In this document: in pieces, positions 1 through 23,003 of the stretch
Position numbering within the stretch: position 1 is the first letter of the stretch
Layout: each line of letters starts with the position of its first letter
IMG/VR virus record: IMGVR_UViG_2778261639_000014
Span: 1 to 25,936 of that record
DNA from: a virus
Lineage: Duplodnaviria > Heunggongvirae > Uroviricota > Caudoviricetes
Length of the DNA stretch: 25,936 nt
Direction: 5' to 3' (one strand)
The notes under the pieces: generated by a model
Told to the model about the DNA's origin: nothing
Databases searched by the model: none
What the model saw: the letters and a program-made list of their open reading frames with translations, nothing else
Program-made: the position numbers and the translations under genes

Positions 1-30
1 CACTGCAAACAGATCCATAGCACAGCTCTT

Positions 31-936
31 TCACTGCTTAGCCTCTCCACCAAGGGCATTTACCAGAGCATCAACCAGGCACGAAATTTCACTGGTCAAC
101 AGGAAGAAATCTACGTCCAGTCGCTGCGCAACATCTTCACTATCAATATCAGAGTTCTGCTCAAGCAATTCATCCGCAAATTTGACGCTGGTAAGGCTGA
201 AGTTATGGTCCAGTGTAAATTTAATGCGGTTCTGCCAGTCGAGTGCCAACTTAGTGACGAGCTTGCCAGCTTCCAGGTGTGTGGAAATTTCATCGCTTCC
301 CAAATCCTGCTTTTTCACTCGGGCAATACCGCCACCCTCAAGCACTGCCTTAAGTTCTGCCGCATCCCCCATTTGAAATCCCTGTGGAGCACTACCATCA
401 CGTACCCAGTTGGTCAGCGTTAATTCAATGGGATTTTCAACACTCAGGGGAACAACAGGAAGAGAACCCAGAGACTTACGCATAAGCGCGAGCATATCCT
501 CTGCCTGCCGCGCGCTGGCATTGATATAGATACGTTTAGTTGAACCGTCGTAGATCGCCTGGATAACAGAAAACTTTGAAAAAGCCCGTGGCAGAAGAGA
601 ATGCAGAACTTCGTCTTTCAGGGAGTCCTTCTCTGTTTTCTTCAGTTTACGCGCTTGTTCTTGCTCAAGTTTTTCAATTTTTTCTTGAATAGCTCGCTGG
701 ATAACCGGCGGGTGAAGAATTTTTGTTTCGCGCTTTGCTTCAACAAGGATAAAACCATTTCCATGCATAGCGATAACTTCGGAATTATCACCAAATGGCG
801 ATACAAAACCGAACTTGGCCATATCCTGACTACCGCATGGCGTGAAAAGGATCATTTTCTTTTTATCTTCTAAGTCGGTCAGATCCGCCTCACGAGAAAG
901 TTTATAAATAGTAATGTTTTTCCAGTGCTTAAACAT
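31..936 (-). CDS. rdgC: RdgC-family recombination-associated protein (P1 hrdC-like)
   Basis: Track ORF 31..957 (TTG). Full-length similarity to RdgC as recalled from E. coli (blocks [52 protein letters not shown]). First ATG is at 936 ([16 protein letters not shown]). P1 carries an RdgC homolog (hrdC). Confidence 0.85.
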
Positions 937-1213
937 GTTGTAACCCTTGAATATCAACCACAGAAAGCTCGTCTTTGTAGAAAAAGGCTAGGTTGTGGCA
1001 CCCCCTCGTTTGAGCGTATGAGCTGGGACCAATTTCGTTCTTCCAGACAAATGGCTTCAAATCCGTACGGCGAAGCATAAAAACGCGATTTGTTCCGCTC
1101 TGATTCCCAATGAGGCAAAAGCCTTCTTTCACCTTGATAGCCTGCAAGTTGTCGAGTTCACCGCTGGTTACACGGCTATCGAACTCTTTGCGGCTTATTA
1201 GCTCCATCTGCAT
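929..1213 (-). CDS. Hypothetical small protein co-transcribed upstream of rdgC (position of P1 cra)
   Basis: Track ORF 929..1285. Start placed at ATG 1213 (GGAG 9 nt upstream) because the track start abuts the operator at 1285-1301. Stop overlaps the rdgC start by 8 nt. No recognisable domain. Confidence 0.4.
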
Positions 1214-1284
1214 CTGACGACTCCAAACAAATGCCCATCGAAGGGCGATAGCTGAATGGTACCGAAAACACGACATAAAAAACA

Positions 1285-1301
1285 ATATTTATTAGAGCAA
1301 T
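1285..1301. promoter_or_regulatory. C1 repressor operator-like site
   Basis: ATATTTATTAGAGCAAT on the + strand is the reverse complement of the asymmetric P1 C1 operator consensus ATTGCTCTAATAAATTT with one mismatch. Lies in the divergent region between the rdgC operon and the + strand genes. Confidence 0.6.
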
Positions 1302-1381
1302 TATGCAATGGTTGACGCCATGTAGACCACAAGTAACCTAAGTTAAAATAAAGAAAACCAGAGCAAATTATTGGTGATGCC

Positions 1382-1666
1382 GTGGCAAGTATTGCAACAA
1401 AAGACAGCATTTGTTCGGGGCACGGAGGATTCCCATCCAGGCCTCCTGTAGAGAGTGAACCACTACTTAAAGTCAACGGAGTCGAAGTGTTAGTTGATGG
1501 TAAGCAATATGCACAGCATACCGATGGAAACAGTACGCACGGTGGGCAAGCTATATCAACCAGGGCATGGTTTACCGTCAATAGTAAAGGGATCGTATGC
1601 GTTGGTGACCCTGTTTCATGCGGATCTACCGTAGCGTCCGGAGACGGCCTGGTTCAGGTAAGTTAG
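1382..1666 (+). CDS. PAAR-like small protein (possible spike-tip protein)
   Basis: 94-aa ORF with GTG start. Repeated elements SGHGG, VNGVEV, THGG, VNSKGIVCVGDPVSCG resemble PAAR or gp5.4-type repeats. Stop is followed 8 nt later by the next gene with an AGGAG SD. Confidence 0.4.
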   Translation: MASIATKDSICSGHGGFPSRPPVESEPLLKVNGVEVLVDGKQYAQHTDGNSTHGGQAISTRAWFTVNSKGIVCVGDPVSCGSTVASGDGLVQVS

Positions 1667-1674
1667 GAGATATC

Positions 1675-2463
1675 ATGCTGGAAAAAGACTACCAGTTATC
1701 CGCATATAAAAAATTGGCCGCCGCCGGTGGGATGAAAACACCTGGTGCCATAACATCGGCACGAAACTGTGCTAACACAGCAAAACTGCTTGCAGAAGAA
1801 TTGACCGGATTAATTCTGGATACAATTGTCTATCCCGACACTATTACCTGCTATGTTTCAACGATAAGAACAACCACAACCGGCTTAACGAACATTGGAG
1901 AACTGGCAACTAAGCACGCGGACCTGTTGGCTGGTTATGCAGATCTGTCAATGCTGCTTCAACTCGATATTGGTTGGGATGTTTACTGCCGTGCTAATGA
2001 GCGAGAAGTTTCAGAACTGCCGATCTCTATTGCCATTGGTGATGTGAATATTACTAAATCGCTTGAGGACGCTGTTAACGCGCTTAATACATCAAGTTTA
2101 GTCGCTGCTATGGGGGAGATTAACCAGACCCTTAACACTGGCTCAGTAAGCTCGTCAGGCTCTGGTTCAGGCGGCGGCACTGCCACTCCCCCACCAACAC
2201 TAACAGAAGAGCAAATTGAATCTCTGAAAGTAGCAACTGAACAGTTTGGGGTTGTTTTCAACCAGACAACAGCGCCCACAACTGCGTTACAACAGCAGTA
2301 TGAACGAGCGAATGAAAGCGCCAACGTAGCCATAACTGCTTATGGACATGCTATCGGTACCGCGCTTGCGGAAGCATCAGCAAATAAGGCCAGCACAGCC
2401 AGCGCAGTTGCTGCTTTGGTTCCTGATTCTGTTCTTGATGAATTAAACAAAGCGGCACAGTAA
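1675..2463 (+). CDS. Hypothetical protein with low-complexity linker
   Basis: Track ORF 1618..2463; ATG 1675 is preceded by AGGAG. 262 aa with Ser/Gly/Thr/Pro-rich linker (SSSGSGSGGGTATPPPT) and Ala-rich C terminus. No catalytic motif recognised. Confidence 0.55.
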   Translation: MLEKDYQLSAYKKLAAAGGMKTPGAITSARNCANTAKLLAEELTGLILDTIVYPDTITCYVSTIRTTTTGLTNIGELATKHADLLAGYADLSMLLQLDIGWDVYCRANEREVSELPISIAIGDVNITKSLEDAVNALNTSSLVAAMGEINQTLNTGSVSSSGSGSGGGTATPPPTLTEEQIESLKVATEQFGVVFNQTTAPTTALQQQYERANESANVAITAYGHAIGTALAEASANKASTASAVAALVPDSVLDELNKAAQ

Positions 2464-2502
2464 CAAAGGACTTCATTGATAATTTTTCTTCAGGAGGAAG
2501 AC

Positions 2503-2919
2503 ATGTCATTCTTTTCTACGTTAAAAACAGCTTTGTCTTTGAAGGAGAAACTTGCTGCTACTGGTGTTCTTGTTCTGATTTGCGCACTTGTTGGTGCTGG
2601 GTTTGCATGGGAACGTCATCAGCTAAAGCAAGCCATAGAGAAAATTGGCAGTCTTGATCAGGCTGTTAAGGAACGTGATAAGTCAATAATGGATCTTAAC
2701 CAGACCATTGAGACGATGAACAAAGCAGAGCAACATTTTCACAGCCAGGAAGTGAAAAATGAATCAGAGCAAGCCAAGTATGCTGACAGGCAAATGGAAC
2801 GAAAAGCTGAAGTTCAGAAACAACTGGTTGCGGCGGGTAATGTTCGCCAGCGCATTCCTGCTGACACTCAGCGGTTGCTCCGGGAGTCGATCAGCGAATT
2901 TAACGCCGACAAAGGTTAA
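2503..2919 (+). CDS. i-spanin-like membrane protein (position of P1 ppfA)
   Basis: Track ORF 2476..2919; ATG 2503 preceded by AGGAGG. N-terminal transmembrane helix (LAATGVLVLICALVGAGFAW) followed by about 100 aa of charged coiled-coil-like sequence. Confidence 0.5.
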   Translation: MSFFSTLKTALSLKEKLAATGVLVLICALVGAGFAWERHQLKQAIEKIGSLDQAVKERDKSIMDLNQTIETMNKAEQHFHSQEVKNESEQAKYADRQMERKAEVQKQLVAAGNVRQRIPADTQRLLRESISEFNADKG

Positions 2920-3085
2920 CCACCCTGCCCCCAAAAGTGCATTTATGTGCAGGATGCCGGAGTTTAGCAGTGAATATTTTGATGATCTGCCAGCGTATAT
3001 CCTCGATACAGAAACGATGCTGATGGGGATTAACAGGAAGAATCGCAATGTTAATGATTACAACCGCGCTATCAGCGGTAACTAA
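2759..3085 (+). CDS. Lipoprotein overlapping the preceding gene, o-spanin-like (position of P1 mlp)
   Basis: ORF in another frame overlapping the last ~160 nt of the upstream gene. Lipobox L-S-G-C after a hydrophobic stretch (FASAFLLTLSGC). Start uncertain: 2759 has an AGGAAG SD, internal ATGs at 2780 and 2840. Confidence 0.5.
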   Translation: MNQSKPSMLTGKWNEKLKFRNNWLRRVMFASAFLLTLSGCSGSRSANLTPTKVNHPAPKSAFMCRMPEFSSEYFDDLPAYILDTETMLMGINRKNRNVNDYNRAISGN

Positions 3086-3096
3086 AAGGGATTTTT

Positions 3097-3489
3097 ATGT
3101 CTGATAAAGTAACAGTTAAGCAAACTATCAACAAAGCGACTTCAATCTACAAAATTGAGCACATCACTGTTGGCAAGCCAGGATCTGAACAATACCGTCA
3201 TGCTTTCGAGCTTGCCGCTCAGCTTGGTTTAAAACACCCGGATTGCATTGAGCATGTATTTCCGACCTATGCTGATGAGCAATGTACTCATGTTCTTACC
3301 GAAGAGGATTTTTTCAGCACTGAAGAACGAGAAGGCGTTGATCGCTGCATTGGTGTGATTTGCTCTTCAGTGAGTTATGAGTTATTCCCTAATGTCCATG
3401 AAAATGGTGGTATTGGATACCAATTCCTGTACGAAGGCGATGAGCTTAAATGTTATGAACATGGTCTTCTTATCGAAAGCGTAGAATAA
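3097..3489 (+). CDS. Hypothetical protein (position of P1 upfA)
   Basis: 130-aa ORF with AAGGGA SD. Acidic, Cys/His-containing, no recognised domain. Lies immediately upstream of the plasmid origin. Confidence 0.55.
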   Translation: MSDKVTVKQTINKATSIYKIEHITVGKPGSEQYRHAFELAAQLGLKHPDCIEHVFPTYADEQCTHVLTEEDFFSTEEREGVDRCIGVICSSVSYELFPNVHENGGIGYQFLYEGDELKCYEHGLLIESVE

Positions 3490-3502
3490 TACCCTTCCTT
3501 CC

Positions 3503-3528
3503 AACCGGCTATGTTGGCCGGTTTATTC
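3503..3528 (+). terminator. Intrinsic terminator-like hairpin
   Basis: Inverted repeat AACCGGC / GCCGGTT with 7-nt loop followed by TTTATT, starting 14 nt after the upstream stop codon. Confidence 0.45.
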
Positions 3529-3529
3529 A

Positions 3530-3760
3530 ACTTATCCACAGCATAGATCCAATAAACAGATCCCAAAGAGAACCTAGGAAGATCCAAAGAAGATCCCGGA
3601 TCGCTGTAAGCCGCGCCGTTCATGGCCTGAAACGGGATCAACATTGACTATACGCGATTTTATGTTGACTGTGTGCGATTTTATGTTGACTGCACGCGAT
3701 TTATTGTTGACTATACGCGACAGAAACGTTGACTGTACGCGATTTTAGAGCCTGAATATT
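3530..3760. other. Plasmid replication origin (P1 oriR-like)
   Basis: DnaA box TTATCCACA (3532-3540), five GATC sites in AGATCC heptamer-like repeats (3546-3602), then five direct iterons. Same layout as P1 oriR. Confidence 0.8.
3644..3747 (+). repeat. incC-like iteron array (5 direct repeats)
   Basis: Five copies of TTGACT-N4-GCGAT(TT) starting at 3644, 3665, 3686, 3707 and 3729 (21-22 bp period), immediately upstream of repA. Confidence 0.85.
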
Positions 3761-3823
3761 CACAGCTGTTGATAACAGTCATCTAAATTAACGCCAGGCC
3801 GCGCCACACATGGAGAAACCACG

Positions 3824-4708
3824 ATGCCGGAAGAAAGTAAAGGCTTCCTTAGCGTTGAAGAAGTTGCAGGAAATACAGGAGAAATCCACAGCCTGAAGCC
3901 CAATAACAACAGCACTATACAACCTATCGCTTTGTTGCGCTTAGGTGTGTTTGTGCCAACCTTAAAATCTACCAATGTGGCACTACGTCGCGGATCGTCA
4001 GTTACTACAAACACAACGAACGCAACCGAAGAACTATCAAGCCTTAAAATTGTTGAGCAGGAAGGCTATGAGGGAATTGAAATTCATGGCCCACGCCTGG
4101 ATATGGATACTGATTTTAAGGTGTGGGTGGGCATAACCTCCGCGTTGTTTGACTACGCACCTGATGATGACGGCATAATCACCCTGCCATTCTCCGAGTT
4201 TGCCGATCGATGCGGCTATCCACGTAAGCGCCTTTCAAAGGCGTTCCGTAAAAGTATTGATGACTCTCTGACACGCATTCAGCAGACAGTTGTCAAATTC
4301 CGCTTCCCGGCGGCAAAAGGTCATCTCAATAACATTAACGTCAACTTGTTGGCATATAGCAGCCTGAATACCGAGCTTGATGTTATCGAGATCCAGCCGC
4401 AGAAACAGCTATCTGAACTTTACTATGTTGACTATAAGCGAATCCTGAAGCTGAAGATGCTGGATAAGCTCGGGCGCAAAGAGACGGCCAAGGTGCTGTA
4501 TACATTCTTTGAGGCTCTACCCGCCAACCCGGCACCTGTCAGCATTGAGCGCCTTAGAGCAAGGCTTAATCTCAAATCATCCGTTAGCGTGCAAAATAGC
4601 GTTATCAGAAAAGCCATGAAAGATTTGGAAGCTATTGAATATCTTAAATTTTCAGAGATAAAAAACGGCAGGAAAATCGGCTTCCAGATTCATAAGCGCA
4701 ATCCATAA
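3824..4708 (+). CDS. repA: Iteron-binding replication initiator RepA (diverged P1 type)
   Basis: 294-aa ORF with GGAGAAA SD. Homologous to P1 RepA as recalled (VQP.AL.RLGVFVP, GPRLDMDTDFK.W.G, YTF.E.LP.NP.P.S, C-terminal HSRNP-like) but only about half the positions conserved. Flanked by iteron arrays. Confidence 0.85.
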   Translation: MPEESKGFLSVEEVAGNTGEIHSLKPNNNSTIQPIALLRLGVFVPTLKSTNVALRRGSSVTTNTTNATEELSSLKIVEQEGYEGIEIHGPRLDMDTDFKVWVGITSALFDYAPDDDGIITLPFSEFADRCGYPRKRLSKAFRKSIDDSLTRIQQTVVKFRFPAAKGHLNNINVNLLAYSSLNTELDVIEIQPQKQLSELYYVDYKRILKLKMLDKLGRKETAKVLYTFFEALPANPAPVSIERLRARLNLKSSVSVQNSVIRKAMKDLEAIEYLKFSEIKNGRKIGFQIHKRNP

Positions 4709-4710
4709 TA

Positions 4711-4965
4711 TTGACTATATGCGATAGCGAGAAGTTGACTATAGGCGACATTCGTTGACGCTGGTGGATTTTTGCTGGCGTCAATATTCTGCAAGTCGCT
4801 ATTGAGATGGCTTTTAGGGTCATTTCATCGCGTATAGTCAACGTTTCTCCCGACAATATCTTACATAGTCGATCTTTGGTGGAGTTAAATCGACTACAGT
4901 CAACTTTTGACTGTAGTCACATCGCGCATAGTCAACTATTCACATTAACCTTCGCGCATAGTCAA
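4711..4965. repeat. incA-like copy-control iteron array
   Basis: At least eight copies of the 14-bp iteron core (TTGACTATATGCGA, TTGACTATAGGCGA, TCGCGTATAGTCAA, TCGACTACAGTCAA, TTGACTGTAGTCAC, TCGCGCATAGTCAA x2) in both orientations downstream of repA. Confidence 0.8.
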
Positions 4966-5000
4966 CATTTGCGCGGTTCTCATCAAGCAGTGGTATTGAT

Positions 5001-5810
5001 ATGCAAGAAGAGAAACAACACTACCTCTACGTTCTGGTGCCGGAGAACGGAGATACTTTTAAAATCGGTATTTCATGTGGTCCATTGGCACGGTTTAAAG
5101 GGCTACAAGTGAGTCCCGATTTTGCGCTTTCACGGGTCTATCGTGGTACGCGTTTGGCAATGGTTAATCTTGAGCGGGCTTTACACGCAACCTTTTTCCC
5201 CTGGAATGCGCCGTGGGAGAAAAGCGCCGGTGGCGGGCATACTGAATGGTTTACACGAGAGTGTCTTGATAAGGTTTTGGCTCATATCGAATATCTAAAT
5301 GATATGTGGGGAGGGATTCTCGAGCGCATTAAGTCGAATGATTTACTTCAGCGTCCAGTAGATGCTGCTCGCTCTTTCGAAAAAGAGTTGGATGTTACTT
5401 CTATCGTGACTTTCAAAGATGACGCAGGAATGAGGGACGTGGCTTATGTCTCCATATCTGGCTATGAACCGGACGCGATCCGCGCTCAATGTGAATTGCT
5501 GAAAGCAGTGTTTATGCTTCGGACTAAATATCCCTGGGAGACAGGGCGGGTGTGCTTCCCTATGGAAGAGTTAACCGCCACCATTGATTCCCAGCTTTAC
5601 CACGATAATCCAGAGAAGTTTTTTAGCCTTTTAGCCGGTAATGGGCTTAACTGTGTGTCCGGGCTGGGGCGAAGTAGAATCCAACATGCCTCGCTCTTCG
5701 GTCCCTTCTTTTACGATCGACACGGGTACTTTGAGACTGAACTTCCGGCGCTTACGCGTGCTATAGATACTATCGATTTCGAACGATTATTCGCTGCTCT
5801 TAGCAAATAA
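5001..5810 (+). CDS. GIY-YIG-like (T5orf172/MUG113-type) domain protein
   Basis: 269 aa. N-terminal pattern YLYVLVPENGDTFKIGIS...R...GGGHTEWF fits the GIY-YIG-like T5orf172 fold. C-terminal ~170 aa unassigned. Has its own terminator. Confidence 0.6.
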   Translation: MQEEKQHYLYVLVPENGDTFKIGISCGPLARFKGLQVSPDFALSRVYRGTRLAMVNLERALHATFFPWNAPWEKSAGGGHTEWFTRECLDKVLAHIEYLNDMWGGILERIKSNDLLQRPVDAARSFEKELDVTSIVTFKDDAGMRDVAYVSISGYEPDAIRAQCELLKAVFMLRTKYPWETGRVCFPMEELTATIDSQLYHDNPEKFFSLLAGNGLNCVSGLGRSRIQHASLFGPFFYDRHGYFETELPALTRAIDTIDFERLFAALSK

Positions 5811-5817
5811 CACTGAT

Positions 5818-5838
5818 GCCCCTGAACGGGGCTTTTTT
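5818..5838 (+). terminator. Rho-independent terminator
   Basis: GCCCC-TGAAC-GGGGC hairpin followed by TTTTTT, 8 nt after the stop of the 5001..5810 gene. Confidence 0.7.
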
Positions 5839-5884
5839 GTGTCCTCCTTGTAACTCTCAATCGTGCAAAATGAACCAAACATGC

Positions 5885-5935
5885 AGAGAATGCTATGTAC
5901 AAGCATCTGTGCATACATTATTATTTTATGCAGCA
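5885..5935 (+). promoter_or_regulatory. par promoter/operator region
   Basis: AT-rich region 40-90 bp upstream of parA with two inverted repeats: ATGCT-N7-AGCAT (~5890-5906) and TGCATA-N11-TATGCA (~5910-5932). Consistent with an autoregulated par operator. Confidence 0.5.
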
Positions 5936-5978
5936 TTTTTAAGTAAATTCAAAAATACAGCATAAAGGATGACTTTCG

Positions 5979-7175
5979 ATGAGTGATTCCAGCCAGCTTC
6001 ACAAGGTTGCTCAAAGAGCAAACAGAATGCTCAATGTTCTGACTGAACAAGTACAGTTGCAAAAGGATGAGCTACACGCGAACGAGTTTTACCAGGTCTA
6101 TGCGAAAGCGGCACTGGCAAAATTGCCTCTACTGACTCGAGCGAACGTTGACTATGCCGTAAGTGAAATGGAAGAAAAGGGTTATGTTTTCGATAAACGC
6201 CCTGCTGGCTCTTCAATGAAATATGCGATGTCAATTCAGAACATCATTGACATATATGAACATCGCGGAGTGCCAAAATACCGGGATCGCTACAGCGAAG
6301 CGTATGTGATTTTCATCTCCAATCTTAAAGGCGGTGTGTCAAAAACTGTATCGACGGTTTCTCTGGCGCATGCAATGCGTGCCCACCCTCATCTTCTGAT
6401 GGAAGATTTAAGAATTCTGGTTATTGACCTTGATCCGCAATCTTCAGCAACGATGTTTTTAAGCCATAAACACTCTATTGGTATCGTAAACGCAACATCT
6501 GCACAGGCTATGTTGCAGAATGTAAGCCGTGAAGAGCTGTTAGAGGAGTTTATTGTTCCTTCTGTTGTACCTGGGGTTGACGTTATGCCTGCGTCGATTG
6601 ACGATGCCTTTATTGCATCCGATTGGAGAGAGCTGTGCAATGAGCATCTACCGGGTCAGAACATCCATGCTGTCCTGAAAGAAAATGTGATTGATAAGCT
6701 GAAGAGCGATTATGACTTTATCCTCGTTGATAGTGGTCCTCACCTTGACGCCTTCCTGAAAAATGCTTTGGCCTCGGCCAATATACTGTTTACACCTCTG
6801 CCGCCAGCAACTGTCGATTTCCACTCATCGCTTAAATACGTTGCCCGCCTTCCTGAGTTGGTAAAACTCATTTCGGATGAAGGCTGCGAGTGCCAGCTTG
6901 CGACTAACATTGGTTTTATGTCCAAGTTGAGTAACAAGGCAGATCATAAGTATTGCCATAGCCTGGCTAAAGAAGTGTTCGGTGGAGATATGCTCGATGT
7001 CGTCCTCCCTCGCCTTGACGGTTTTGAACGTTGCGGCGAGTCTTTTGACACTGTTATTTCAGCTAACCCGGCAACGTATGTTGGTAGTGCTGATGCATTG
7101 AAGAACGCGCGAATTGCCGCGGAAGATTTTGCTAAAGCAGTTTTTGACCGTATTGAATTTATCAGATCTAACTGA
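5979..7175 (+). CDS. parA: Partition ATPase ParA (type Ia, P1 type)
   Basis: 398 aa. Deviant Walker A KGGVSKT and ~100-aa N-terminal extension typical of P1 ParA / F SopA. Length and sequence match P1 ParA as recalled. Confidence 0.95.
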   Translation: MSDSSQLHKVAQRANRMLNVLTEQVQLQKDELHANEFYQVYAKAALAKLPLLTRANVDYAVSEMEEKGYVFDKRPAGSSMKYAMSIQNIIDIYEHRGVPKYRDRYSEAYVIFISNLKGGVSKTVSTVSLAHAMRAHPHLLMEDLRILVIDLDPQSSATMFLSHKHSIGIVNATSAQAMLQNVSREELLEEFIVPSVVPGVDVMPASIDDAFIASDWRELCNEHLPGQNIHAVLKENVIDKLKSDYDFILVDSGPHLDAFLKNALASANILFTPLPPATVDFHSSLKYVARLPELVKLISDEGCECQLATNIGFMSKLSNKADHKYCHSLAKEVFGGDMLDVVLPRLDGFERCGESFDTVISANPATYVGSADALKNARIAAEDFAKAVFDRIEFIRSN

Positions 7176-7191
7176 GGAGTAAGAAACCCCC

Positions 7192-8193
7192 ATGTCAAAG
7201 AAAAACAGACCAACAATTGGGCGAACCCTTAATCCTTCAATATTAAGCGGATTTGATAGTTCTTCAGCCTCTGGCGATCGAGTCGAGCAGGTATTCAAGT
7301 TATCAACTGGTCGCCAGGCCACATTTATTGAAGAGGTAATACCTCCGAACCAGGTAGAAAGCGATACCTTTGTTGATCAGCATAACAACGGGCGTGACCA
7401 GGCATCTCTTACGCCAAAATCATTAAAAAGTATCCGAAGCACTATTAAGCATCAGCAATTTTACCCTGCAATAGGTGTTAGACGGGCTACAGGGAAAATT
7501 GAAATTTTGGATGGTTCCCGGCGTCGAGCTTCTGCCATCTTAGAGAACGTAGGGTTGCGGGTTTTAGTCACGGACCAGGAGATCAGCGTTCAGGAAGCGC
7601 AAAATTTAGCGAAAGACGTTCAGACAGCATTGCAGCACAGCATTCGAGAAATAGGTCTGCGTTTGATGCGAATGAAAAATGATGGGATGAGTCAGAAGGA
7701 TATTGCAGCCAAAGAAGGGCTGTCTCAGGCGAAGGTCACGCGTGCTCTCCAGGCAGCGAGTGCTCCGGAAGAATTAGTCGCCCTTTTCCCTGTGCAGTCG
7801 GAATTAACCTTTTCGGACTACAAAACGCTTTGTGCTGTTGGCGACGAAATGGGGAACAAGAATTTAGAGTTTGATCAGCTTATTCAAAACATATCCCCGG
7901 AAATAAACGACATCTTATCCATTGAAGAAATGGCCGAAGATGAAGTTAAAAATAAAATCCTGCGCTTGATAACAAAGGAAGCCTCACTACTCACGGATAA
8001 AGGTTCTAAAGATAAGTCCGTAGTTACTGAATTATGGAAATTTGAGGACAAGGATCGCTTTGCAAGGAAGCGCGTGAAAGGCCGGGCATTTTCTTATGAG
8101 TTTAATCGACTTTCAAAAGAGCTACAGGAAGAACTCGACAGGATGATTGGGCATATCCTTAGAAAGAGCCTCGATAAAAAGCCGAAGCCTTAA
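7192..8193 (+). CDS. parB: Centromere-binding protein ParB (P1 type)
   Basis: 333 aa with GAGGAG SD. N terminus MSKKNRPTIGRTLNPS and length match P1 ParB as recalled. Directly followed by parS. Confidence 0.95.
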   Translation: MSKKNRPTIGRTLNPSILSGFDSSSASGDRVEQVFKLSTGRQATFIEEVIPPNQVESDTFVDQHNNGRDQASLTPKSLKSIRSTIKHQQFYPAIGVRRATGKIEILDGSRRRASAILENVGLRVLVTDQEISVQEAQNLAKDVQTALQHSIREIGLRLMRMKNDGMSQKDIAAKEGLSQAKVTRALQAASAPEELVALFPVQSELTFSDYKTLCAVGDEMGNKNLEFDQLIQNISPEINDILSIEEMAEDEVKNKILRLITKEASLLTDKGSKDKSVVTELWKFEDKDRFARKRVKGRAFSYEFNRLSKELQEELDRMIGHILRKSLDKKPKP

Positions 8194-8197
8194 ACTT

Positions 8198-8285
8198 TCG
8201 CCATTCAAATTTCACTATTAACATACTGTTTTTAAAGTAAATCCATCTAAAATTTCAAGGTGAAATCGCCACGATTTCACCTTGG
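8198..8285. other. parS: Partition site parS (P1 type)
   Basis: Box B TCGCCA (8198-8203), box A ATTTCAC (8209-8215), AT-rich ~45 bp spacer (IHF-bend-like), inverted box A GTGAAAT (8260-8266), box B TCGCCA (8266-8271), box A ATTTCAC (8274-8280). Confidence 0.85.
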
Positions 8286-8337
8286 ATTTTACCTTCCGCC
8301 CCTACTCCCGAAAAAAATAAAAAAATTGCTTGTCACG

Positions 8338-8368
8338 AGAAAGTCAACAAGTGACTTTCAATAAAATC
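8338..8368 (+). promoter_or_regulatory. Late (Lpa-dependent-type) promoter upstream of the gene-23-like operon
   Basis: Inverted repeat AAAGTCA-N5-TGACTTT followed 3 nt later by a -10 TAAAAT and no -35. Fits the organisation recalled for P1 late promoters. Confidence 0.5.
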
Positions 8369-8397
8369 TCTTCCGAAAAGGGATTCACACAAGTGCC

Positions 8398-10125
8398 TTG
8401 TGTTTAAGGAAGAGTAAATTGAGTAACTTACGCGAATACCAGAATCGTATTGCAGATATCGCAAAACGCTCTAAAGCTGTGCTTGGCTGGGCAAGCACTG
8501 CGCAGTTCGGTACTGATAACCAATTCATTAAAGATGATGCCGCGCGTGCCGCATCTATCCTTGAAGCTGCACGTAAAGACCCGGTTTTTGCGGGTATCTC
8601 TGATAATGCCACCGCTCAAATCGCTACAGCGTGGGCAAGTGCACTGGCTGACTACGCCGCAGCACATAAATCTATGCCGCGTCCGGAAATTCTGGCCTCC
8701 TGCCACCAGACGCTGGAAAACTGCCTGATTGAGTCCACCCGCAACAGCATGGATGCCACTAATAAAGCGATGCTGGAATCCGTCGCAGCAGAGATGATGA
8801 GCGTTTCTGACGGTGTTATGCGTCTGCCTTTATTCCTCGCGATGATCCTGCCTGTTCAGTTGGGGGCAGCTACCGCTGATGCGTGTACCTTCATTCCGGT
8901 TACGCGTGACCAGTCCGACATCTATGAAGTCTTTAACGTGGCAGGTTCCTCTTTTGGTTCTTATGCTGCTGGTGATGTTCTGGACATGCAATCCGTCGGT
9001 GTGTACAGCCAGTTACGCCGCCGCTATGTGCTGGTGGCAAGCTCCGATGGCACCAGCAAAACCGCAACCTTCAAGATGGAAGACTTCGAAGGCCAGAATG
9101 TACCAATCCGAAAAGGTCGCACTAACATCTACGTTAACCGTATTAAGTCTGTTGTTGATAACGGTTCCGGCAGCCTACTTCACTCGTTTACTAATGCTGC
9201 TGGTGAGCAAATCACTGTTACTTGCTCTCTGAACTACAACATTGGTCAGATTGCCCTGTCGTTCTCCAAAGCGCCGGATAAAGGCACTGAGATCGCAATT
9301 GAGACGGAAATCAATATTGAAGCCGCTCCTGAGCTGATCCCGCTGATCAACCACGAAATGAAGAAATACACCCTGTTCCCAAGCCAGTTCGTTATCGCGG
9401 CTGAGCACACGGTACAGGCGGCGTATGAAGCACAGCGTGAATTTGGTCTGGACCTGGGTTCCCTACAGTTCCGCACCCTGAAAGAATACCTGTCCCATGA
9501 ACAGGATATGTTGCGTCTCCGCATCATGATCTGGCGTACTCTTGCGACCGACACCTTTGACATCGCTCTGCCGGTTAACCAGTCCTTTGATGTATGGGCA
9601 ACCATCATTCGTGGCAAATTCCAGACTGTATATCGCGACATTATTGAGCGCGTTAAATCTTCTGGTGCGATGGGGATGTTTGCTGGTGCTGATGCAGCAT
9701 CTTTCTTCAAACAGTTGCCGAAGGATTTCTTCCAGCCAGCCGAAGACTATATCCAGACTCCGTATGTTCACTACATCGGTACCCTGTTCGGTAACGTGAA
9801 AGTGTACGAAGTACCTGCTGGTATTTGTAAGAACTTAACGACAGAGAACATTCAGTTCAGCTCGATGGATGTGCTGTGCTACGTCCGTGATGAAAATCCG
9901 GGTAAAGCAGGCTTCGTGACTGGTGATGCTGTCCCGGCCATCCCGTTCCAGCATCCGACCACTCCGGCGCTGGTCAACCGTACCACGCTGTGGGGTTCGG
10001 CTATCAACGATATGCACCCACGCAACGGCGCTGATTACTTCACTCGTGTAACGCTGACAATGGCCAAAAAAGGCGGGCTTAACTTTATAAGCGGCGACAC
10101 GATTGATGCCGGTGACTCTGAGTAA
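8398..10125 (+). CDS. Structural protein in the position of P1 gene 23 (putative major head protein)
   Basis: Track start TTG 8398; better start TTG 8419 with AAGGAAG SD. ~568 aa with strong codon bias. First gene after parS behind a late promoter. Assigned by position and expression signature, not by a verified motif. Confidence 0.6.
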   Translation: MCLRKSKLSNLREYQNRIADIAKRSKAVLGWASTAQFGTDNQFIKDDAARAASILEAARKDPVFAGISDNATAQIATAWASALADYAAAHKSMPRPEILASCHQTLENCLIESTRNSMDATNKAMLESVAAEMMSVSDGVMRLPLFLAMILPVQLGAATADACTFIPVTRDQSDIYEVFNVAGSSFGSYAAGDVLDMQSVGVYSQLRRRYVLVASSDGTSKTATFKMEDFEGQNVPIRKGRTNIYVNRIKSVVDNGSGSLLHSFTNAAGEQITVTCSLNYNIGQIALSFSKAPDKGTEIAIETEINIEAAPELIPLINHEMKKYTLFPSQFVIAAEHTVQAAYEAQREFGLDLGSLQFRTLKEYLSHEQDMLRLRIMIWRTLATDTFDIALPVNQSFDVWATIIRGKFQTVYRDIIERVKSSGAMGMFAGADAASFFKQLPKDFFQPAEDYIQTPYVHYIGTLFGNVKVYEVPAGICKNLTTENIQFSSMDVLCYVRDENPGKAGFVTGDAVPAIPFQHPTTPALVNRTTLWGSAINDMHPRNGADYFTRVTLTMAKKGGLNFISGDTIDAGDSE

Positions 10126-10151
10126 TCAGGGGAAGTTCTCCGTTTAACATA

Positions 10152-10170
10152 GCGCCCCCGTGCGGGGCGC
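10152..10170 (+). other. Intercistronic GC-rich hairpin without U-tract
   Basis: GCGCCCC-CGTGC-GGGGCGC between the gene-23-like and sheath genes. No T-run follows, so probably an RNA processing or stability element rather than a terminator. Confidence 0.4.
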
Positions 10171-10185
10171 ATAACAGGGAAAGTT

Positions 10186-11775
10186 ATGTCTCAATATTCA
10201 ATTCAACAGTCATTAGGTAATGCATCCGGCGTCGCTGTTAGCCCGATCAATGCCGATGCGACGTTATCTACCGGTGTTGCATTAAATAGCAGCTTGTGGG
10301 CTGGTATTGGCGTATTTGCGCGTGGCAAGCCGTTTACTGTTCTTGCGGTTACTGAGTCCAATTACGAAGATGTTCTCGGCGAACCGCTGAAGCCGTCTTC
10401 CGGCTCACAGTTCGAACCAATTCGCCATGTGTACGAAGCTATTCAGCAAACGTCTGGTTATGTTGTCCGTGCTGTTCCGGATGATGCGAAGTTCCCGATT
10501 ATTATGTTCGATGAATCAGGCGAACCGGCTTACAGTGCGTTGCCATACGGTTCTGAAATTGAACTTGATAGCGGCGAAGCCTTTGCTATCTACGTTGATG
10601 ATGGTGATCCGTGTATTTCACCTACCCGTGAGTTAACCATCGAAACGGCAACAGCGGACAGCGCAGGTAATGAACGCTTCCTCCTGAAACTGACCCAGAC
10701 GACTTCGCTCGGCGTGGTAACGACCCTGGAGACACACACTGTGTCTTTGGCGGAAGAAGCAAAAGATGACATGGGCCGCTTGTGTTATCTGCCTACGGCT
10801 CTGGAAGCCCGTTCTAAATATCTGCGCGCGGTTGTTAATGAAGAGCTGATTTCGACGGCGAAAGTAACAAATAAAAAATCGCTGGCGTTCACTGGCGGTA
10901 CCAACGGCGATCAGTCGAACATTTCCACTGCTGCTTACCTGCGCGCGGTGAAAGTGCTGAACAATGCGCCGTACATGTACACCGCTGTTCTCGGCCTGGG
11001 TTGCTATGACAATGCGGCGATCACTGCGTTAGGTAATATCTGTTCTGATCGCTTGATTGATGGCTTCTTTGATGTCAAACCGACATTGACGTACACGGAA
11101 GCGATCTCTGCTGTTGAAGATACCGGTTTACTTGGTACCGATTATGTAAGCTGTGCTGTCTATCATTTCCCGTTCTCCTGCAAAGACAAATGGACCCAAT
11201 CCCGCGTGGTCTTCGGTCTGTCTGGCGCGGCGTATGCGGCGAAAGCTCGTGGCGTCAAGAAAAACTCCGATGTCGGCGGTTGGCATTACTCACCGGCTGG
11301 TGAAGAACGTGCCGTCATTGCTCGTGCATCACTTCAACCGCTGTATCCGGAAGACACCCCGGACGAAGAAGCTATGGTCAAGGGCCGACTCAATAAAGTA
11401 TCTGTAGGTACTTCGGGCCAGATGATCATCGATGATGCTTTAACTTGCTGCACGCAGGACAACTATCTGCATTTCCAGCACGTCCCATCCCTGATGAATG
11501 CAATCAGCCGTTTCTTTGTCCAGTTAGCCCGACAGATGAAGCATAACCCGGACGGCATTACTGAGTCTGGCCTGACTAAAGGGATGACCAAACTTTTGGA
11601 TCGCTTTGTCGCCTCCGGCGCTCTGGTGGCTCCTCGTGATCCTGATGCTGACGGTACAGAACCGTATGTGCTGAAAGTTACGCAGGCGGAATTCGATAAA
11701 TGGGAAGTAGTCTGGGCCTGCTGCCCGACTGGCGTAGCCCGTCGTATCCAGGGCGTACCGCTGCTTATTAAGTAA
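10186..11775 (+). CDS. Contractile tail sheath protein (putative, P1 gene 22-like)
   Basis: 529 aa. Contains GGWHYSPAG, resembling the G-x-W-x-x-P-A-G motif I associate with sheath proteins. Size fits a ~57 kDa sheath. Confidence 0.65.
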   Translation: MSQYSIQQSLGNASGVAVSPINADATLSTGVALNSSLWAGIGVFARGKPFTVLAVTESNYEDVLGEPLKPSSGSQFEPIRHVYEAIQQTSGYVVRAVPDDAKFPIIMFDESGEPAYSALPYGSEIELDSGEAFAIYVDDGDPCISPTRELTIETATADSAGNERFLLKLTQTTSLGVVTTLETHTVSLAEEAKDDMGRLCYLPTALEARSKYLRAVVNEELISTAKVTNKKSLAFTGGTNGDQSNISTAAYLRAVKVLNNAPYMYTAVLGLGCYDNAAITALGNICSDRLIDGFFDVKPTLTYTEAISAVEDTGLLGTDYVSCAVYHFPFSCKDKWTQSRVVFGLSGAAYAAKARGVKKNSDVGGWHYSPAGEERAVIARASLQPLYPEDTPDEEAMVKGRLNKVSVGTSGQMIIDDALTCCTQDNYLHFQHVPSLMNAISRFFVQLARQMKHNPDGITESGLTKGMTKLLDRFVASGALVAPRDPDADGTEPYVLKVTQAEFDKWEVVWACCPTGVARRIQGVPLLIK

Positions 11776-11784
11776 GGAAATACA

Positions 11785-12600
11785 ATGAGCAAAAACTTTT
11801 TTCAATCCGGGGCATTTTTGGGGAATGGACTGTCCCGTTTCGCTTTGAACTCTGATCCTGTGCAGCTGATGGAGTCTGCCCGAGCAAGCGCTGAACCGCC
11901 AACAGATCCGGTTATTAATAATAATCCGGAACCGGCGGCACAGACTAACGATAACGTTCCATCTGCCCCGGCTCCTGAGCAAATCCTGGAAGGGAAAGAC
12001 GGTAAAGAATGGACCGTCGAACAGGCGCACCAGATGATTCTGGAAGCTGCAAATCGAAGTGCTATGCAGAATGCGTTGAGTGATGCGGCCGACGCCGTTT
12101 TCGCCTGGGCTGATAGCGGTGATCTGACTTTCGACTCCCTTGATGGTTTCGTTCAGGCTATCGCTGGTATCTCTGATGACGACGACTCCGAAGTTACAGA
12201 AGAACAGGACGATGCCTATAACGAAGCATGGGCAAATGTTGCTGACTTCCTCGCAGCATGCGGTGTAGATGATGACCTGATCGAAGCACTGGCTGACGAT
12301 GAAGACGACGACGCAGCTGCTGATGTTGGTGCCTCTATCGCTGGTTTAGATAGCGACGACCGCGACGAACTGGAAGCGGCGTTTGTTGTTGCTGGCACTT
12401 CTGATGAAATGCTGACTGAAGCATTTAAGAAGGTTGTTCGTAATGGTGAGATCAAACTCATCCGTAAACGCCTGCGTAAAAAACGTCTGACTGCGGCTCA
12501 AAAATCGGCGCTGAAAAAAGCGCGTCGAAAAGCCCAGACCGGCGCGGCAAAACTTGCCCGCAAAAAGTCAATGAAACTGCGCCGTAAGCGCCTTGGCTAA
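11785..12600 (+). CDS. Charge-segregated protein (acidic body, basic C-terminal tail)
   Basis: 271 aa with AAGGAAA SD. Long D/E-rich stretches (DDDDSEVTEEQDD, DDEDDDAAADV) and a K/R-rich final ~50 aa (KRLRKKRLTAAQKSALKKARRKAQTGAAKLARKKSMKLRRKRLG). No enzymatic motif. Confidence 0.6.
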   Translation: MSKNFFQSGAFLGNGLSRFALNSDPVQLMESARASAEPPTDPVINNNPEPAAQTNDNVPSAPAPEQILEGKDGKEWTVEQAHQMILEAANRSAMQNALSDAADAVFAWADSGDLTFDSLDGFVQAIAGISDDDDSEVTEEQDDAYNEAWANVADFLAACGVDDDLIEALADDEDDDAAADVGASIAGLDSDDRDELEAAFVVAGTSDEMLTEAFKKVVRNGEIKLIRKRLRKKRLTAAQKSALKKARRKAQTGAAKLARKKSMKLRRKRLG

Positions 12601-12635
12601 AGGAGGAGGCCGGAGAACTCCGGCCTTTAACTTGA

Positions 12636-13217
12636 ATGGCACCTATACCTTATGGGGTTTACAGCCAGGCTGACGGTGTATCGCCATTTCTGAAAGTTAC
12701 TTTAACGAACTCTCAGTACCAGGTTACCGGATATATCAGCCAGGGGGCAGCAATGAACATGGCCCAGAATTGGGAAGCGCCGTTTACCGGTATGTCCATG
12801 GGGTCTGTTGCTGGTGCTTTCAGTGGTTTTGCGCAGGTTGGTACTGAAACAACGTCGGTGGCCCGTTGGAACAGCTTAATGGTTTGGGAAGGGGGGACAC
12901 CGCCGACGTTCACGCTGCCCGTAACTTTCATTGCTTTGAACAATCCATTCATTGAAGTTTCAGGCGCTATCGCCGCGTTGACAGCCATGATTAGCCCGGA
13001 ACTAAAAGCGGCCAATGTTGGTGGTCGAATCCCGGAACGTGTGACGCTAAACATTGGTCGCCGGATCAACATCACCGATGTCGCTATCCAGGACTTAAGT
13101 TTTGATCTCGATGCGCCAAGGGACAGTAATGGATATTTCCTGAAAAACACCGTCAACCTCCAGTTGACCGGTTCTTCGATATATAACAGCTCCGATATTG
13201 TTCGGGCGTTCCAGTAA
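12636..13217 (+). CDS. Hypothetical late-operon protein (tail component candidate)
   Basis: 193-aa ORF preceded by a GGCCGGAG/CTCCGGCC hairpin. Gly/Ala/Thr-rich. No diagnostic motif. Confidence 0.5.
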   Translation: MAPIPYGVYSQADGVSPFLKVTLTNSQYQVTGYISQGAAMNMAQNWEAPFTGMSMGSVAGAFSGFAQVGTETTSVARWNSLMVWEGGTPPTFTLPVTFIALNNPFIEVSGAIAALTAMISPELKAANVGGRIPERVTLNIGRRINITDVAIQDLSFDLDAPRDSNGYFLKNTVNLQLTGSSIYNSSDIVRAFQ

Positions 13218-13228
13218 AAGGATTTTAT

Positions 13229-13738: not shown

Positions 13739-13757
13739 GAGCCATCCCTTGTATTTT

Positions 13758-13782
13758 AAAGCTCCTTCGGGAGCTTTTTTTA
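13758..13782 (+). terminator. Rho-independent terminator of the late structural operon
   Basis: AAAGCTCC-TTCG-GGAGCTTT hairpin followed by T7, 20 nt after the stop codon. Confidence 0.85.
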
Positions 13783-13909
13783 TAACTATTTTATATAAAA
13801 ATGCATCGATAACATTGTCTGGAGTTTTATGTTAGATTATTAATGTTCTAATAAACTACAATTATTGCGGTAGATGTTTGTGCCTGTACTGTTAAAGGGG
13901 GACTCTAAA

Positions 13910-14934: not shown

Positions 14935-14964
14935 CTCCGACCTCAAACTGAAAACGCCAGGTGA

Positions 14965-18410: not shown

Positions 18411-18424
18411 GTAGTTAAAAAACA

Positions 18425-18441: not shown

Positions 18442-18444
18442 TAT

Positions 18445-21747: not shown

Positions 21748-21748
21748 T

Positions 21749-22999: not shown

Positions 23000-23003
23000 T
23001 AAT

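What the first reader, a model, noticed from the sequence alone, without database searches (positions are those of the whole stretch)
5001..5838. Free-standing GIY-YIG/T5orf172-like gene inserted between incA and the par promoter
A self-contained gene with its own terminator interrupts the otherwise compact rep-inc-par module. Its N terminus carries a GIY-YIG-type nuclease signature and the C-terminal ~170 aa is unassigned. It could be a selfish homing-endonuclease-type insertion, or a nuclease used against competing plasmids or phages. This is the clearest accessory insert in the window and my first candidate for an uncharacterised function.
Basis: partly seen in the sequence, partly recalled or inferred. 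Interest (0 to 1): 0.7.

Follow-up and report, generated by a model that had tools for sequence, protein, structure and literature searches.

The report
Nuclease gene riding a plasmid replicon
A real but dispensable and often broken nuclease gene of the homing-endonuclease type travels with one version of the replication module of P1-like phage-plasmids; it is probably a selfish or competitor-targeting DNA cutter, and nobody has tested it.

Summary
Window 5001-5810 (+) encodes a 269-aa protein followed by a terminator at 5818-5842. It lies between the downstream iterons of repA and the par promoter. The N-terminal ~105 aa is a T5orf172/GIY-YIG nuclease domain by profile and by fold, with every family-invariant motif residue intact. 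The C-terminal ~145 aa has no sequence relatives outside this family. Its nearest solved folds are winged-helix WH1 domains of iteron-plasmid initiators, but that match is weak.

"Inserted" is only partly right. The gene lies inside a 2.26-kb replicon cassette (iterons, repA, iterons, gene) that replaces P1's IncY cassette. It is linked about 1:1 with this Rep allele (398 vs 401 plasmids). Diverged orthologues occupy the same site next to three Rep types, including a P1-type Rep, so P1 and IncY plasmids look like the exception.

The gene evolves much faster than its neighbours (piN/piS 0.31 vs 0.002-0.055). About 18% of sampled copies are broken by at least four independent events. These match published signatures of T5orf172 homing endonuclease genes.

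Best reading: a selfish or competitor-targeting site-specific nuclease tied to the replicon cassette. An Odn-like origin-directed nuclease is the most novel option left open. It is a new variant of a known kind, of moderate interest.

The parts
3618..5876 (+). Replicon cassette that differs from reference P1 (2259 bp here, 1500 bp in P1). It contains origin iterons, repA, downstream iterons, the nuclease gene and its terminator.
   Evidence: blastn of the window against P1 aligns only 1-3617 and 5877-13780 around this region. The L003 vs L047 pair of a second backbone has breakpoints of the same layout. PMC9603915 describes the same replacement in JL22: 'repA' (p0111) and an unknown gene gp57' replacing IncY repA.
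3643..3742 (+). Five direct iterons (consensus GTTGACTATACGCGA) upstream of repA, in the position of P1's incC origin iterons.
   Evidence: the repeat finder families D1/D2. The pattern search found 12 matches in the window against 0.5 expected by chance.
3824..4708 (+). repA: a 294-aa Rep3-family (WH1-WH2) iteron-binding initiator of the p0111 type.
   Evidence: Pfam Rep3_C 27.3 bits (cut-off 21.1) and Rep3_N/WH1 22.0 bits (cut-off 22.4). It is 40-42% identical to P1 RepA and 84% to the L003 Rep. RepA is >=95% identical in 395 plasmids.
4710..4966 (.). Six downstream iterons in the position of P1's incA: two direct (4710, 4734) and four inverted (4828, 4890, 4922, 4952). The last ends about 30 bp before the ORF's ATG.
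5001..5810 (+). The gene in question: a 269-aa two-domain protein (stop codon included in the span).
   Evidence: ORF; homology; RefSeq annotates it as 'GIY-YIG nuclease family protein'.
5001..5315 (+). N-terminal T5orf172/GIY-YIG nuclease domain (aa 1-105). Motif residues Y10, K21, G23, R31, E58, H62, G79, T81, E82, W83 and F84 are all present.
5373..5807 (+). Fast-evolving C-terminal domain (about aa 125-269), reached through a low-confidence linker at aa 117-126. Residues 157-231 are predicted to have a winged-helix-like topology.
5818..5842 (+). Intrinsic-terminator-like hairpin plus T-run that ends the (repA-)ORF transcript before Ppar.
5896..5924 (+). par promoter (Ppar), assigned by homology to P1. 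P1 homology resumes at about 5877-5881.
   Evidence: Promoter-like site TGTACA-17-TATTAT. It aligns with the annotated P1 Ppar/ParA operator.
5979..8193 (+). parA (5979-7175) and parB (7192-8193), 99.7% and 100% identical to P1's proteins.

Best explanation
The gene encodes a two-domain site-specific DNA endonuclease of the free-standing homing-endonuclease type. It has a catalytically competent T5orf172 (GIY-YIG superfamily) domain at the N terminus and a rapidly diversifying targeting domain at the C terminus. It is inherited as part of the replicon cassette (iterons, repA, iterons, nuclease) of P1-like phage-plasmids.

It is probably transcribed at a low level by read-through from the autoregulated repA promoter and stopped by its own terminator before Ppar.

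Proposed action: when the carrier meets a related P1-family genome with a different cassette or no such gene, the nuclease cuts that DNA in or near the rep-par interval. The rival is then either destroyed or repaired from the carrier, using the conserved flanks (the left part of oriR, and par). Repair would copy the whole cassette, nuclease included.

The gene gives nothing to plasmid maintenance itself, so it decays once there is no target to cut.

Shown: domain identity, intact motif residues, linkage to the Rep allele, conserved position, fast evolution, frequent inactivation, dispensability.
Inferred: nuclease activity, the target, read-through expression, cassette conversion.
For: N-domain:
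- Pfam T5orf172 above cut-off.
- All positions invariant in 146 relatives are retained (Y10, K21, G23, R31, E58, G79, E82). The conserved Glu is required for cleavage in the T5orf172 nuclease Odn (PMC8263062).

The published signatures of T5orf172 HEGs (PMC10448857) are all seen here:
- Presence/absence among close relatives. P1 and IncY plasmids lack the gene while sharing ParA, ParB and gp23 at >=99.7% identity.
- Instability. W68*, S112*, Q228* and an IS200/605 replacement give 8 broken copies among the 44 sampled loci that span the gene (43 viral-contig loci plus RCS47, one incomplete contig-end copy excluded). Frameshift forms P0007 and P0008, an IS3 insertion (H93) and a 229-member truncated cluster P0003 add to this.
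- Position next to essential genes and at a recombination boundary. The breakpoint at 5877 is about 45 bp after the terminator.

Relaxed constraint in the population: piN/piS is 0.31, against 0.021 (repA), 0.002 (parA) and 0.055 (parB).

Long-term maintenance with a very fast C-domain: the frame is open in four lineages, and dN is 0.74 for the C-domain against 0.13 for Rep and 0.07 for ParA.

The layout, a nuclease domain at one terminus, a linker, then a separate domain, matches the general HEG layout described.
Against: - No cleavage, target site or homing event is shown, and homing is unverified even for the ICP1 T5orf172 genes.
- The gene was never found away from its Rep cassette or at any other locus. 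Independent mobility, a hallmark of HEGs, is therefore not seen.
- The orthologue variant tracks the cassette over deep divergence. That fits a stable cassette component as well as it fits a selfish element.
- The C-domain is mildly acidic (pI about 5.2) and has no recognisable DNA-binding profile.
- Among about 400 plasmids there is no clean deletion of the gene. This is unexpected for pure junk.
- parA and parB next to the breakpoint show no elevated divergence of the kind a co-conversion tract might leave.
Confidence: 0.42

Rival explanations
1. Odn-like origin-directed nuclease for replicon warfare. The C-terminal domain is a diverged copy of an initiator's WH1 winged-helix domain. It brings the T5orf172 nuclease to iterons (or to iteron-bound RepA) of a rival P1-family replicon, whose origin is then cut. 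No homing is needed, and the benefit is displacement of an incompatible competitor.
For: - The neighbouring RepA belongs to that family (Rep3_C and Rep3_N/WH1).
- There is a precedent. ICP1 Odn fuses a RepA-like DNA-binding domain to T5orf172 and cuts the PLE origin in an iteron-dependent way (PMC8263062).
- Every family member sits directly after iterons, and each Rep type has its own variant.
- The C-domain evolves at an arms-race-like rate.
Against: - Profile-profile comparison of the C-domain with the four RepA sequences gives probability 0.2%.
- The C-domain is acidic.
- Odn's DNA-binding domain is of the RepA_N type and N-terminal, so the family and the domain order both differ.
- IncY and p0111 elements coexist at similar frequencies (31 vs 24 of 55; PMC9603915).
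Confidence: 0.2
2. Accessory defence gene: a single-protein nuclease that protects the lysogen against unrelated phages or plasmids. The C-domain would act as a sensor or specificity module.
For: - Phage-plasmids carry accessory genes in variable regions (PMC9603915).
- A distant N-domain relative (P0013) lies beside Mrr-type nuclease, WYL and Ymh genes on a chromosome.
- The gene is dispensable and patchily intact, like many defence genes.
Against: - There is no match to any of the 5027 PADLOC defence models, even at E <= 1.
- The gene is not in a variable cargo region. It has a fixed address inside the replicon cassette in all four lineages.
- The family is confined to P1-like elements across 5.8 billion protein clusters.
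Confidence: 0.12
3. Domesticated replication or partition accessory factor. The protein binds DNA or RepA near incA and tunes copy-number control, or insulates par from rep transcription. Its nuclease activity would be irrelevant or lost, by analogy with the HEG-derived repressor CapR.
For: - The position between incA and Ppar is conserved next to three Rep types.
- Co-transcription with repA is likely.
- There are no clean deletions among about 400 plasmids.
- WH1 is the Rep dimerisation domain (established knowledge of Rep3 initiators), so a WH1-like domain could bind RepA.
- CapR is a precedent for domestication (PMC10448857).
Against: - P1 and IncY plasmids replicate and partition without it.
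- About 18% of copies are broken in otherwise intact elements, and piN/piS is 6-150 times that of repA, parA and parB.
- The full nuclease motif set is kept across 25%-identity divergence. That is not expected if only binding mattered.
Confidence: 0.1
4. Relic with no present function in E. coli: a formerly active nuclease gene now drifting towards loss and hitch-hiking with a successful replicon.
For: At least four independent inactivations among 44 loci, plus further broken forms in the databases. Amino-acid polymorphism is elevated in both domains.
Against: - piN/piS is 0.31, still well below 1.
- More than 80% of copies are intact.
- All invariant motif residues are retained in the window copy.
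- Orthologues are open in three other lineages.
Confidence: 0.1

Closest known systems
T5orf172-family putative homing endonuclease genes of vibriophage ICP1 and other phages (Barth, Dunham & Seed 2023, PMC10448857)
   Same: Same nuclease domain family (Pfam PF10544; structural hits to these proteins at probability 1.00). Same general layout, with the nuclease at one terminus and a separate module at the other. Same genomic signatures: variable presence, stops, frameshifts and IS hits, a position next to essential genes, and a position at a boundary of genetic exchange.
   Different: 87% of those HEGs carry CapR/DUF723/DUF4397 zinc-finger DNA-binding repeats. This protein has no CxxC motif and no such Pfam hit. 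Its C-domain is an orphan found in only four protein clusters. It resides in a plasmid-replicon cassette of a temperate phage-plasmid, not in a lytic phage genome. It shows no sign of spreading to other loci.
Odn (ICP1 gp88), the origin-directed T5orf172 nuclease (Barth et al. 2021, PMC8263062)
   Same: A T5orf172 nuclease domain with the conserved catalytic Arg and Glu. Structural match to ICP1 ORF88. Physical and evolutionary association with an iteron replicon. The second domain possibly resembles an initiator's DNA-binding fold.
   Different: Odn's targeting domain is 42% identical to PLE RepA_N and sits at the N terminus. Here the second domain is C-terminal, has no detectable sequence similarity to either RepA type, and only weakly resembles the Rep3 WH1 fold. 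Odn is encoded by the enemy of the replicon it cuts, whereas this gene sits inside a replicon. No activity data exist for it.
I-TevI and the free-standing Seg endonucleases of phage T4 (GIY-YIG homing endonucleases)
   Same: N-terminal catalytic domain of about 100 aa, a linker, and a C-terminal module, in a protein of about 250 aa. Free-standing and intergenic between conserved genes. This architecture is from established knowledge and is referred to in PMC8263062.
   Different: It belongs to the T5orf172 subfamily (K-I-G in place of Y-I-G). There is no sequence match to I-TevI or Seg-type DNA-binding modules. The C-domain is acidic rather than basic.
SLX1 structure-specific endonuclease (nearest solved structures 6seh_C, 7cq2_A, 7wme_A)
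   Different: 11-16% identity. SLX1 is a eukaryotic repair nuclease whose other features have no counterpart here. The resemblance covers the catalytic domain only.

Membership tests
Pfam T5orf172 (PF10544), GIY-YIG superfamily | Profile HMM score above the curated gathering cut-off | tested here: met
   27.6 bits against a cut-off of 20, E 4.5e-6, aa 8-85. MUG113 scores below its cut-off (15.4 vs 22.3).
Pfam T5orf172 (PF10544), GIY-YIG superfamily | GIY-YIG alpha/beta catalytic fold | tested here: met
Pfam T5orf172 (PF10544), GIY-YIG superfamily | Conserved motif residues, including the catalytic Arg and Glu (Glu = E180 of Odn / the I-TevI catalytic Glu) | tested here: met
   Y10, K21, G23, R31, E58, G79 and E82 are invariant or nearly so in 146 relatives, and all are present here. 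They are also invariant across the four lineages. Equivalence of E82 to Odn E180 is inferred from the family alignment and was not superposed directly.
Pfam T5orf172 (PF10544), GIY-YIG superfamily | Metal-dependent DNA cleavage | not testable with these tools
   Needs purified protein, wild type vs E82A.
Free-standing homing endonuclease gene (HEG) | Presence/absence polymorphism at one locus among closely related genomes | tested here: met
   Absent in P1 and in two IncY plasmids with near-identical par and capsid genes; present in about 400 p0111-type plasmids.
Free-standing homing endonuclease gene (HEG) | Frequent degeneration (stops, frameshifts, insertions) and relaxed selection | tested here: met
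   8 of 44 sampled copies are broken by at least 4 independent events. piN/piS is 0.31 vs 0.002-0.055 for the neighbours.
Free-standing homing endonuclease gene (HEG) | Located beside essential genes, at a boundary of genetic exchange | tested here: met
   Between repA/incA and parA. The homology breakpoint with P1 lies about 45 bp past its terminator. The L003 vs L047 pair has the same layout.
Free-standing homing endonuclease gene (HEG) | Separate sequence-specific DNA-binding domain | tested here: inconclusive
Free-standing homing endonuclease gene (HEG) | Mobility independent of neighbouring genes (same gene at other loci or in unrelated genomes) | tested here: not met
   Every homologue sharing the C-domain, in 5.8 billion clusters and 1.84 billion representatives, lies between rep and parA of a P1-like element. 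It is linked 1:1 with its Rep allele.
Free-standing homing endonuclease gene (HEG) | Cleavage of the gene-less allele, and gene conversion into it | not testable with these tools
   Needs in-vitro cleavage mapping and mixed-infection or co-residence crosses.
Odn-type origin-directed nuclease | T5orf172 nuclease fused to a domain homologous to a replication initiator's DNA-binding domain | tested here: inconclusive
Odn-type origin-directed nuclease | Iteron-dependent cleavage of a replication origin | not testable with these tools
   No iteron copies lie inside or downstream of the gene. Biochemistry is needed.
CapR/DUF723/DUF4397 zinc-finger T5orf172 HEGs | CxxC...CxC zinc-finger DNA-binding repeats | tested here: not met
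   The C-domain cysteines are C164, C186 and C218, with no CxxC motif (sequence). No Pfam hit up to E = 10.
Known anti-phage defence systems (PADLOC-DB v2) | Match to a defence-protein HMM | tested here: not met
   0 families at E <= 1.

The most novel reading that the evidence does not exclude
The protein is a plasmid-borne counterpart of Odn: a T5orf172 nuclease whose C-terminal domain descends from an iteron-initiator WH1 domain. That domain would guide the nuclease to the iterons, or to the iteron-bound RepA, of rival P1-family replicons. Each replicon cassette would then carry its own weapon against the other incompatibility types. The nuclease would drive the replicon-cassette swaps (IncY vs p0111) seen in two separate P1-like backbones.
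Probability: 0.15. Interest if true: 0.8.

Novelty: new variant of a known kind. Interest (0 to 1): 0.5.

Why it matters
P1-like phage-plasmids are widespread carriers of resistance genes in Enterobacteriaceae. They are typed by exactly the two replicons compared here, IncY and p0111.

This work shows three things about the p0111 replicon:
- It always carries a T5orf172 nuclease gene, intact or broken.
- The gene is ancient at this address.
- The gene bears the evolutionary marks of a selfish or conflict gene.

If the protein cuts rival replicons or promotes cassette conversion, it would give a mechanism for replicon replacement and competition among phage-plasmids. It would also extend T5orf172 homing-type nucleases from lytic phages to plasmid maintenance modules.

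If it is merely a decaying selfish gene, it is still a clean natural example of the homing-endonuclease life cycle, and its RefSeq annotation should stay at the level of domain family only.

Tried and rejected
- Simple insertion into P1: rejected. The whole 3618-5876 cassette is a different allele.
- Remnant of the gene in P1's 171-bp incA-Ppar spacer: none found with blastn-short.
- L047-type orthologue in PLSDB plasmids with P1-type Rep: none. Only the N-domain of the window-type gene cross-matched.
- Window-type Rep cassettes lacking the gene: none. The 80-95% RepA hits were not a separate lineage.
- C-domain related by sequence to RepA, PDB chains or Pfam: no.
- Defence-system membership: no PADLOC hit. 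No NCBIfam hit.
- Own promoter or C1 operator near the gene: none.
- Iterons within or after the gene: none.
- Between-lineage dN/dS: synonymous sites are saturated, so only dN could be compared.
- First AF2 model (3 sequences, pLDDT 61): judged too weak for fold search and replaced by the 5-sequence model.
- The AFDB50 fold library was unavailable.
- The RepA profile did not reach solved structures by sequence.
- The full-text searches (T5orf172; P1-like / phage-plasmid / p0111 / IncY; GIY-YIG / iteron / plasmid / incompatibility / nuclease) turned up no study of this gene beyond its mention as 'unknown gp57'.

Full report
**1. What is in the sequence**

Window 5001-5810 (+) is an ATG-initiated ORF of 269 codons. 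A GC-rich hairpin at 5818-5832 with a T-run follows it.

Upstream lies repA (3824-4708). Twelve copies of a 15-nt iteron (GTTGACTATACGCGA, up to 3 mismatches; 0.5 expected by chance) surround it:
- five direct copies at 3643-3742;
- one copy inside repA;
- six copies at 4710-4966.

The last iteron ends about 30 bp before the ATG.

Downstream, a promoter-like site at 5896-5924 coincides with P1's annotated Ppar. parA and parB follow.

The window is a P1-like phage-plasmid. It is 98.6-98.9% identical over 3.4 kb to phages RCS47, SJ46, JL22 and vB_EcoM-Ro157c2YLVW.

**2. The protein**

*N-terminal domain.*
- Pfam assigns aa 8-85 to T5orf172 above the gathering cut-off. PHROGs gives a full-length match to phrog_2876 (unknown function) and a partial match to an endonuclease PHROG.
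- An AlphaFold2 model from a five-sequence alignment has mean pLDDT 73.9. It shows two well-predicted domains and a disordered linker at 117-126.
- Foldseek against viral models returns only T5orf172 proteins at probability 1.00. These include ICP1 ORF88 (named as Odn/gp88 in PMC8263062), CapR-homology proteins and annotated coliphage homing endonucleases.
- In an alignment of 146 relatives from the exhaustive HMMER search, Y10, K21, G23, R31, E58, G79 and E82 are invariant or nearly so. The window protein has all of them.
- The conserved Glu of this family is required for cleavage in Odn (PMC8263062).

*C-terminal domain (about 145 aa).*
- It has no match in Pfam, in PDB sequences, or to a profile of the four RepA proteins.
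- It is mildly acidic in every lineage and has no zinc-finger motif.
- Residues 157-231 are predicted as alpha-beta-alpha-alpha-alpha-beta-beta. This contains the winged-helix order plus one extra short helix.
- Foldseek ranks the same proteins next, but without significance.
- I treat this as a lead, not a finding.

**3. 'Inserted' is not the right word**

blastn against reference P1 aligns window 1-3617 and 5877-13780. The 2259 bp between them replace 1500 bp of P1.

That segment comprises the origin iterons, repA (about 40% identical to P1 RepA), the downstream iterons and the ORF. P1 has no gene between incA and Ppar, and its 171-bp spacer holds no remnant of one.

The literature describes the same replacement in JL22 as 'repA' (p0111) and an unknown gene gp57' replacing IncY repA. 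It counts 31 IncY and 24 p0111 among 55 P1-like elements (PMC9603915).

In PLSDB:
- 401 plasmids carry the ORF, all at >=90% identity.
- 398 carry this Rep type.
- About 150 further P1-like plasmids match only from Ppar onward.
- Two of those, typed IncY, have P1's gene-free 557-bp repA-parA gap.

**4. The family is tiny and always at the same address**

In 5.8 billion protein clusters, only four clusters share the C-domain:
- the E. coli group (1,241 members);
- P0004;
- P0009 (Salmonella enterica);
- P0011 (a faecal metagenome).

An exhaustive HMMER scan of 1.84 billion representatives adds only N-domain matches.

All three diverged orthologues lie between rep and parA of P1-like elements.

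The comparison gives a 2x2 pattern:
- P1 and the window share one backbone (ParA, ParB and gp23 at >=99.7%) but differ in Rep type.
- L003 and L047 share a second backbone (98-99.7% to each other; gp23 80% to P1) and differ in the same way.
- L003 has the window-type Rep (84%) and an orthologue 43% identical to the window's.
- L047 has a P1-type Rep (83%) and an orthologue only about 26% identical.
- L049 has a third Rep type.

So the nuclease gene belongs to the cassette in three Rep types, and P1/IncY is the exception. Loss in that lineage is at least as parsimonious as gain here.

Distant N-domain relatives occur in other settings. One is in a phage region with two HNH_3 endonuclease genes, and one is chromosomal beside Mrr, WYL and Ymh genes. 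The rep-par address is therefore specific to this subfamily.

**5. Evolutionary behaviour**

Between the window and L003:

| Gene or domain | dN |
|---|---|
| ParA | 0.07 |
| Rep | 0.13 |
| gp23 | 0.13 |
| ParB | 0.26 |
| ORF N-domain | 0.28 |
| ORF C-domain | 0.74 |

DNA homology between the two elements runs through the first 105 codons and is then lost until Ppar.

I sampled 43 IMG/VR loci plus RCS47. Excluding the contig-end fragment L045 and adding the window itself, 44 loci span the gene:
- piN/piS is 0.31 for the ORF, against 0.021 (repA), 0.002 (parA) and 0.055 (parB).
- Eight of these 44 copies are broken by at least four independent events. These are W68*, S112* (five loci sharing one haplotype), Q228* (in a 103,445-bp contig, the length of the SJ46 record) and an IS200/IS605-type replacement.
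- Databases add frameshift forms, an IS3 insertion and a 229-member cluster of N-terminally truncated calls.

The gene is therefore dispensable for the carrier and weakly constrained today. Four lineages have nevertheless kept it open with all motif residues, so it has been a working protein over the long term.

**6. Expression (inferred)**

No sigma-70 consensus promoter lies between the last iteron and the ATG. No terminator separates repA from the ORF. No C1 operator-like site lies nearby.

The simplest reading is low-level read-through from the autoregulated repA promoter, ended by the ORF's terminator before Ppar.

**7. Interpretation**

Barth et al. list the signatures that mark T5orf172 genes as homing endonuclease genes: variable presence, stops and frameshifts, proximity to essential genes, and location at boundaries of genetic exchange (PMC10448857). 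All four are met here. The domain layout also matches.

I therefore favour a site-specific nuclease of the selfish or competitor-targeting kind that is tied to the replicon cassette.

Rep types are too diverged to recombine with each other. A break near the rep-par interval of a rival could therefore be repaired only from the conserved flanks (the left part of oriR, and par). That repair would copy the whole cassette, and the observed breakpoints fit this. This step is inference.

Points against a classic HEG:
- There is no evidence of mobility apart from the cassette.
- The C-domain is acidic.
- There are no clean deletions among about 400 plasmids.
- No co-conversion-like divergence is seen in parA.

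The most novel option still open is an Odn-like origin-directed nuclease. It rests on the weak Rep-WH1 fold resemblance and on the precedent of ICP1 Odn (PMC8263062).

A defence role lacks any PADLOC support. A housekeeping role is contradicted by IncY plasmids, which lack the gene, and by the broken copies.

**8. Novelty and score**

The gene is already annotated by RefSeq as a 'GIY-YIG nuclease family protein' and has been mentioned as an unknown gene. Its domain family is a known kind of phage nuclease.

What is new:
- the orphan C-domain, possibly initiator-like;
- the obligate linkage to a plasmid replicon cassette across three Rep types;
- the population evidence of a homing-endonuclease-like life cycle in a phage-plasmid maintenance module.

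I rate it a new variant of a known kind, interest 0.5.

Noticed in passing
window 18058-18447 (junction) and 18447-25572: Synteny break. The window is colinear with P1 down to about P1 48.5 kb (the icd/c4 side). It then continues in the same orientation with the P1 84.9-92.9 kb region (pacA/pacB/lpa/pdcB). RCS47 and SJ46 have these two parts tens of kb apart. A C1-operator-like site (3 mismatches) lies at 18425-18441. This could be a real rearrangement or deletion, or an assembly chimera.
   Followed up: no
window 13781-14970: A 1.2-kb segment has no homology to P1. It lies where P1 has the variable rlfA/rlfB/pmgF region (this variable region is listed in PMC9603915).
   Followed up: no
L043:4295-6057: An IS200/IS605-type element (389-aa TnpB-like ORF on the minus strand and a 141-aa TnpA-like ORF) replaces nt 295-523 of the nuclease gene in one IMG/VR contig. 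The IS family was assigned by eye and not profile-tested.
   Followed up: partly
GenBank OR339795.1 (phage phi456) 39982-40788: The same ORF (98.5% identical) is annotated there as 'terminase small subunit'. This looks like a misannotation, given the T5orf172 profile and fold.
   Followed up: partly
L003:10001-10123: The database gene call for P0004 starts 41 codons too early. The extension (…AYSQH…AYSQH…) is a translation of the iterons. The aligned Met at L003 10124 is the likely start.
   Followed up: yes
L003 vs L047 (whole loci): Two elements with a 98-99.7% identical backbone carry different Rep cassettes. This mirrors the P1 vs window pair. The two-allele replicon polymorphism therefore spans two P1-like backbones whose capsid proteins differ by about 20%.
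   Followed up: partly
window 4807-5112 (+): A 101-aa ORF that overlaps the iterons and the start of the nuclease gene is a reading-frame artefact of the repeats. Its product contains the repeated 'AHSQ' motif.
   Followed up: no
L051:1799-7983 and L052:1914-4444: Distant N-domain relatives sit in different settings. P0013 is chromosomal, beside Mrr-type nuclease, WYL/WCX and Ymh genes. P0012 is in a phage region with two HNH_3 endonuclease genes, and its C-terminus looks by eye like a helix-turn-helix.
   Followed up: no
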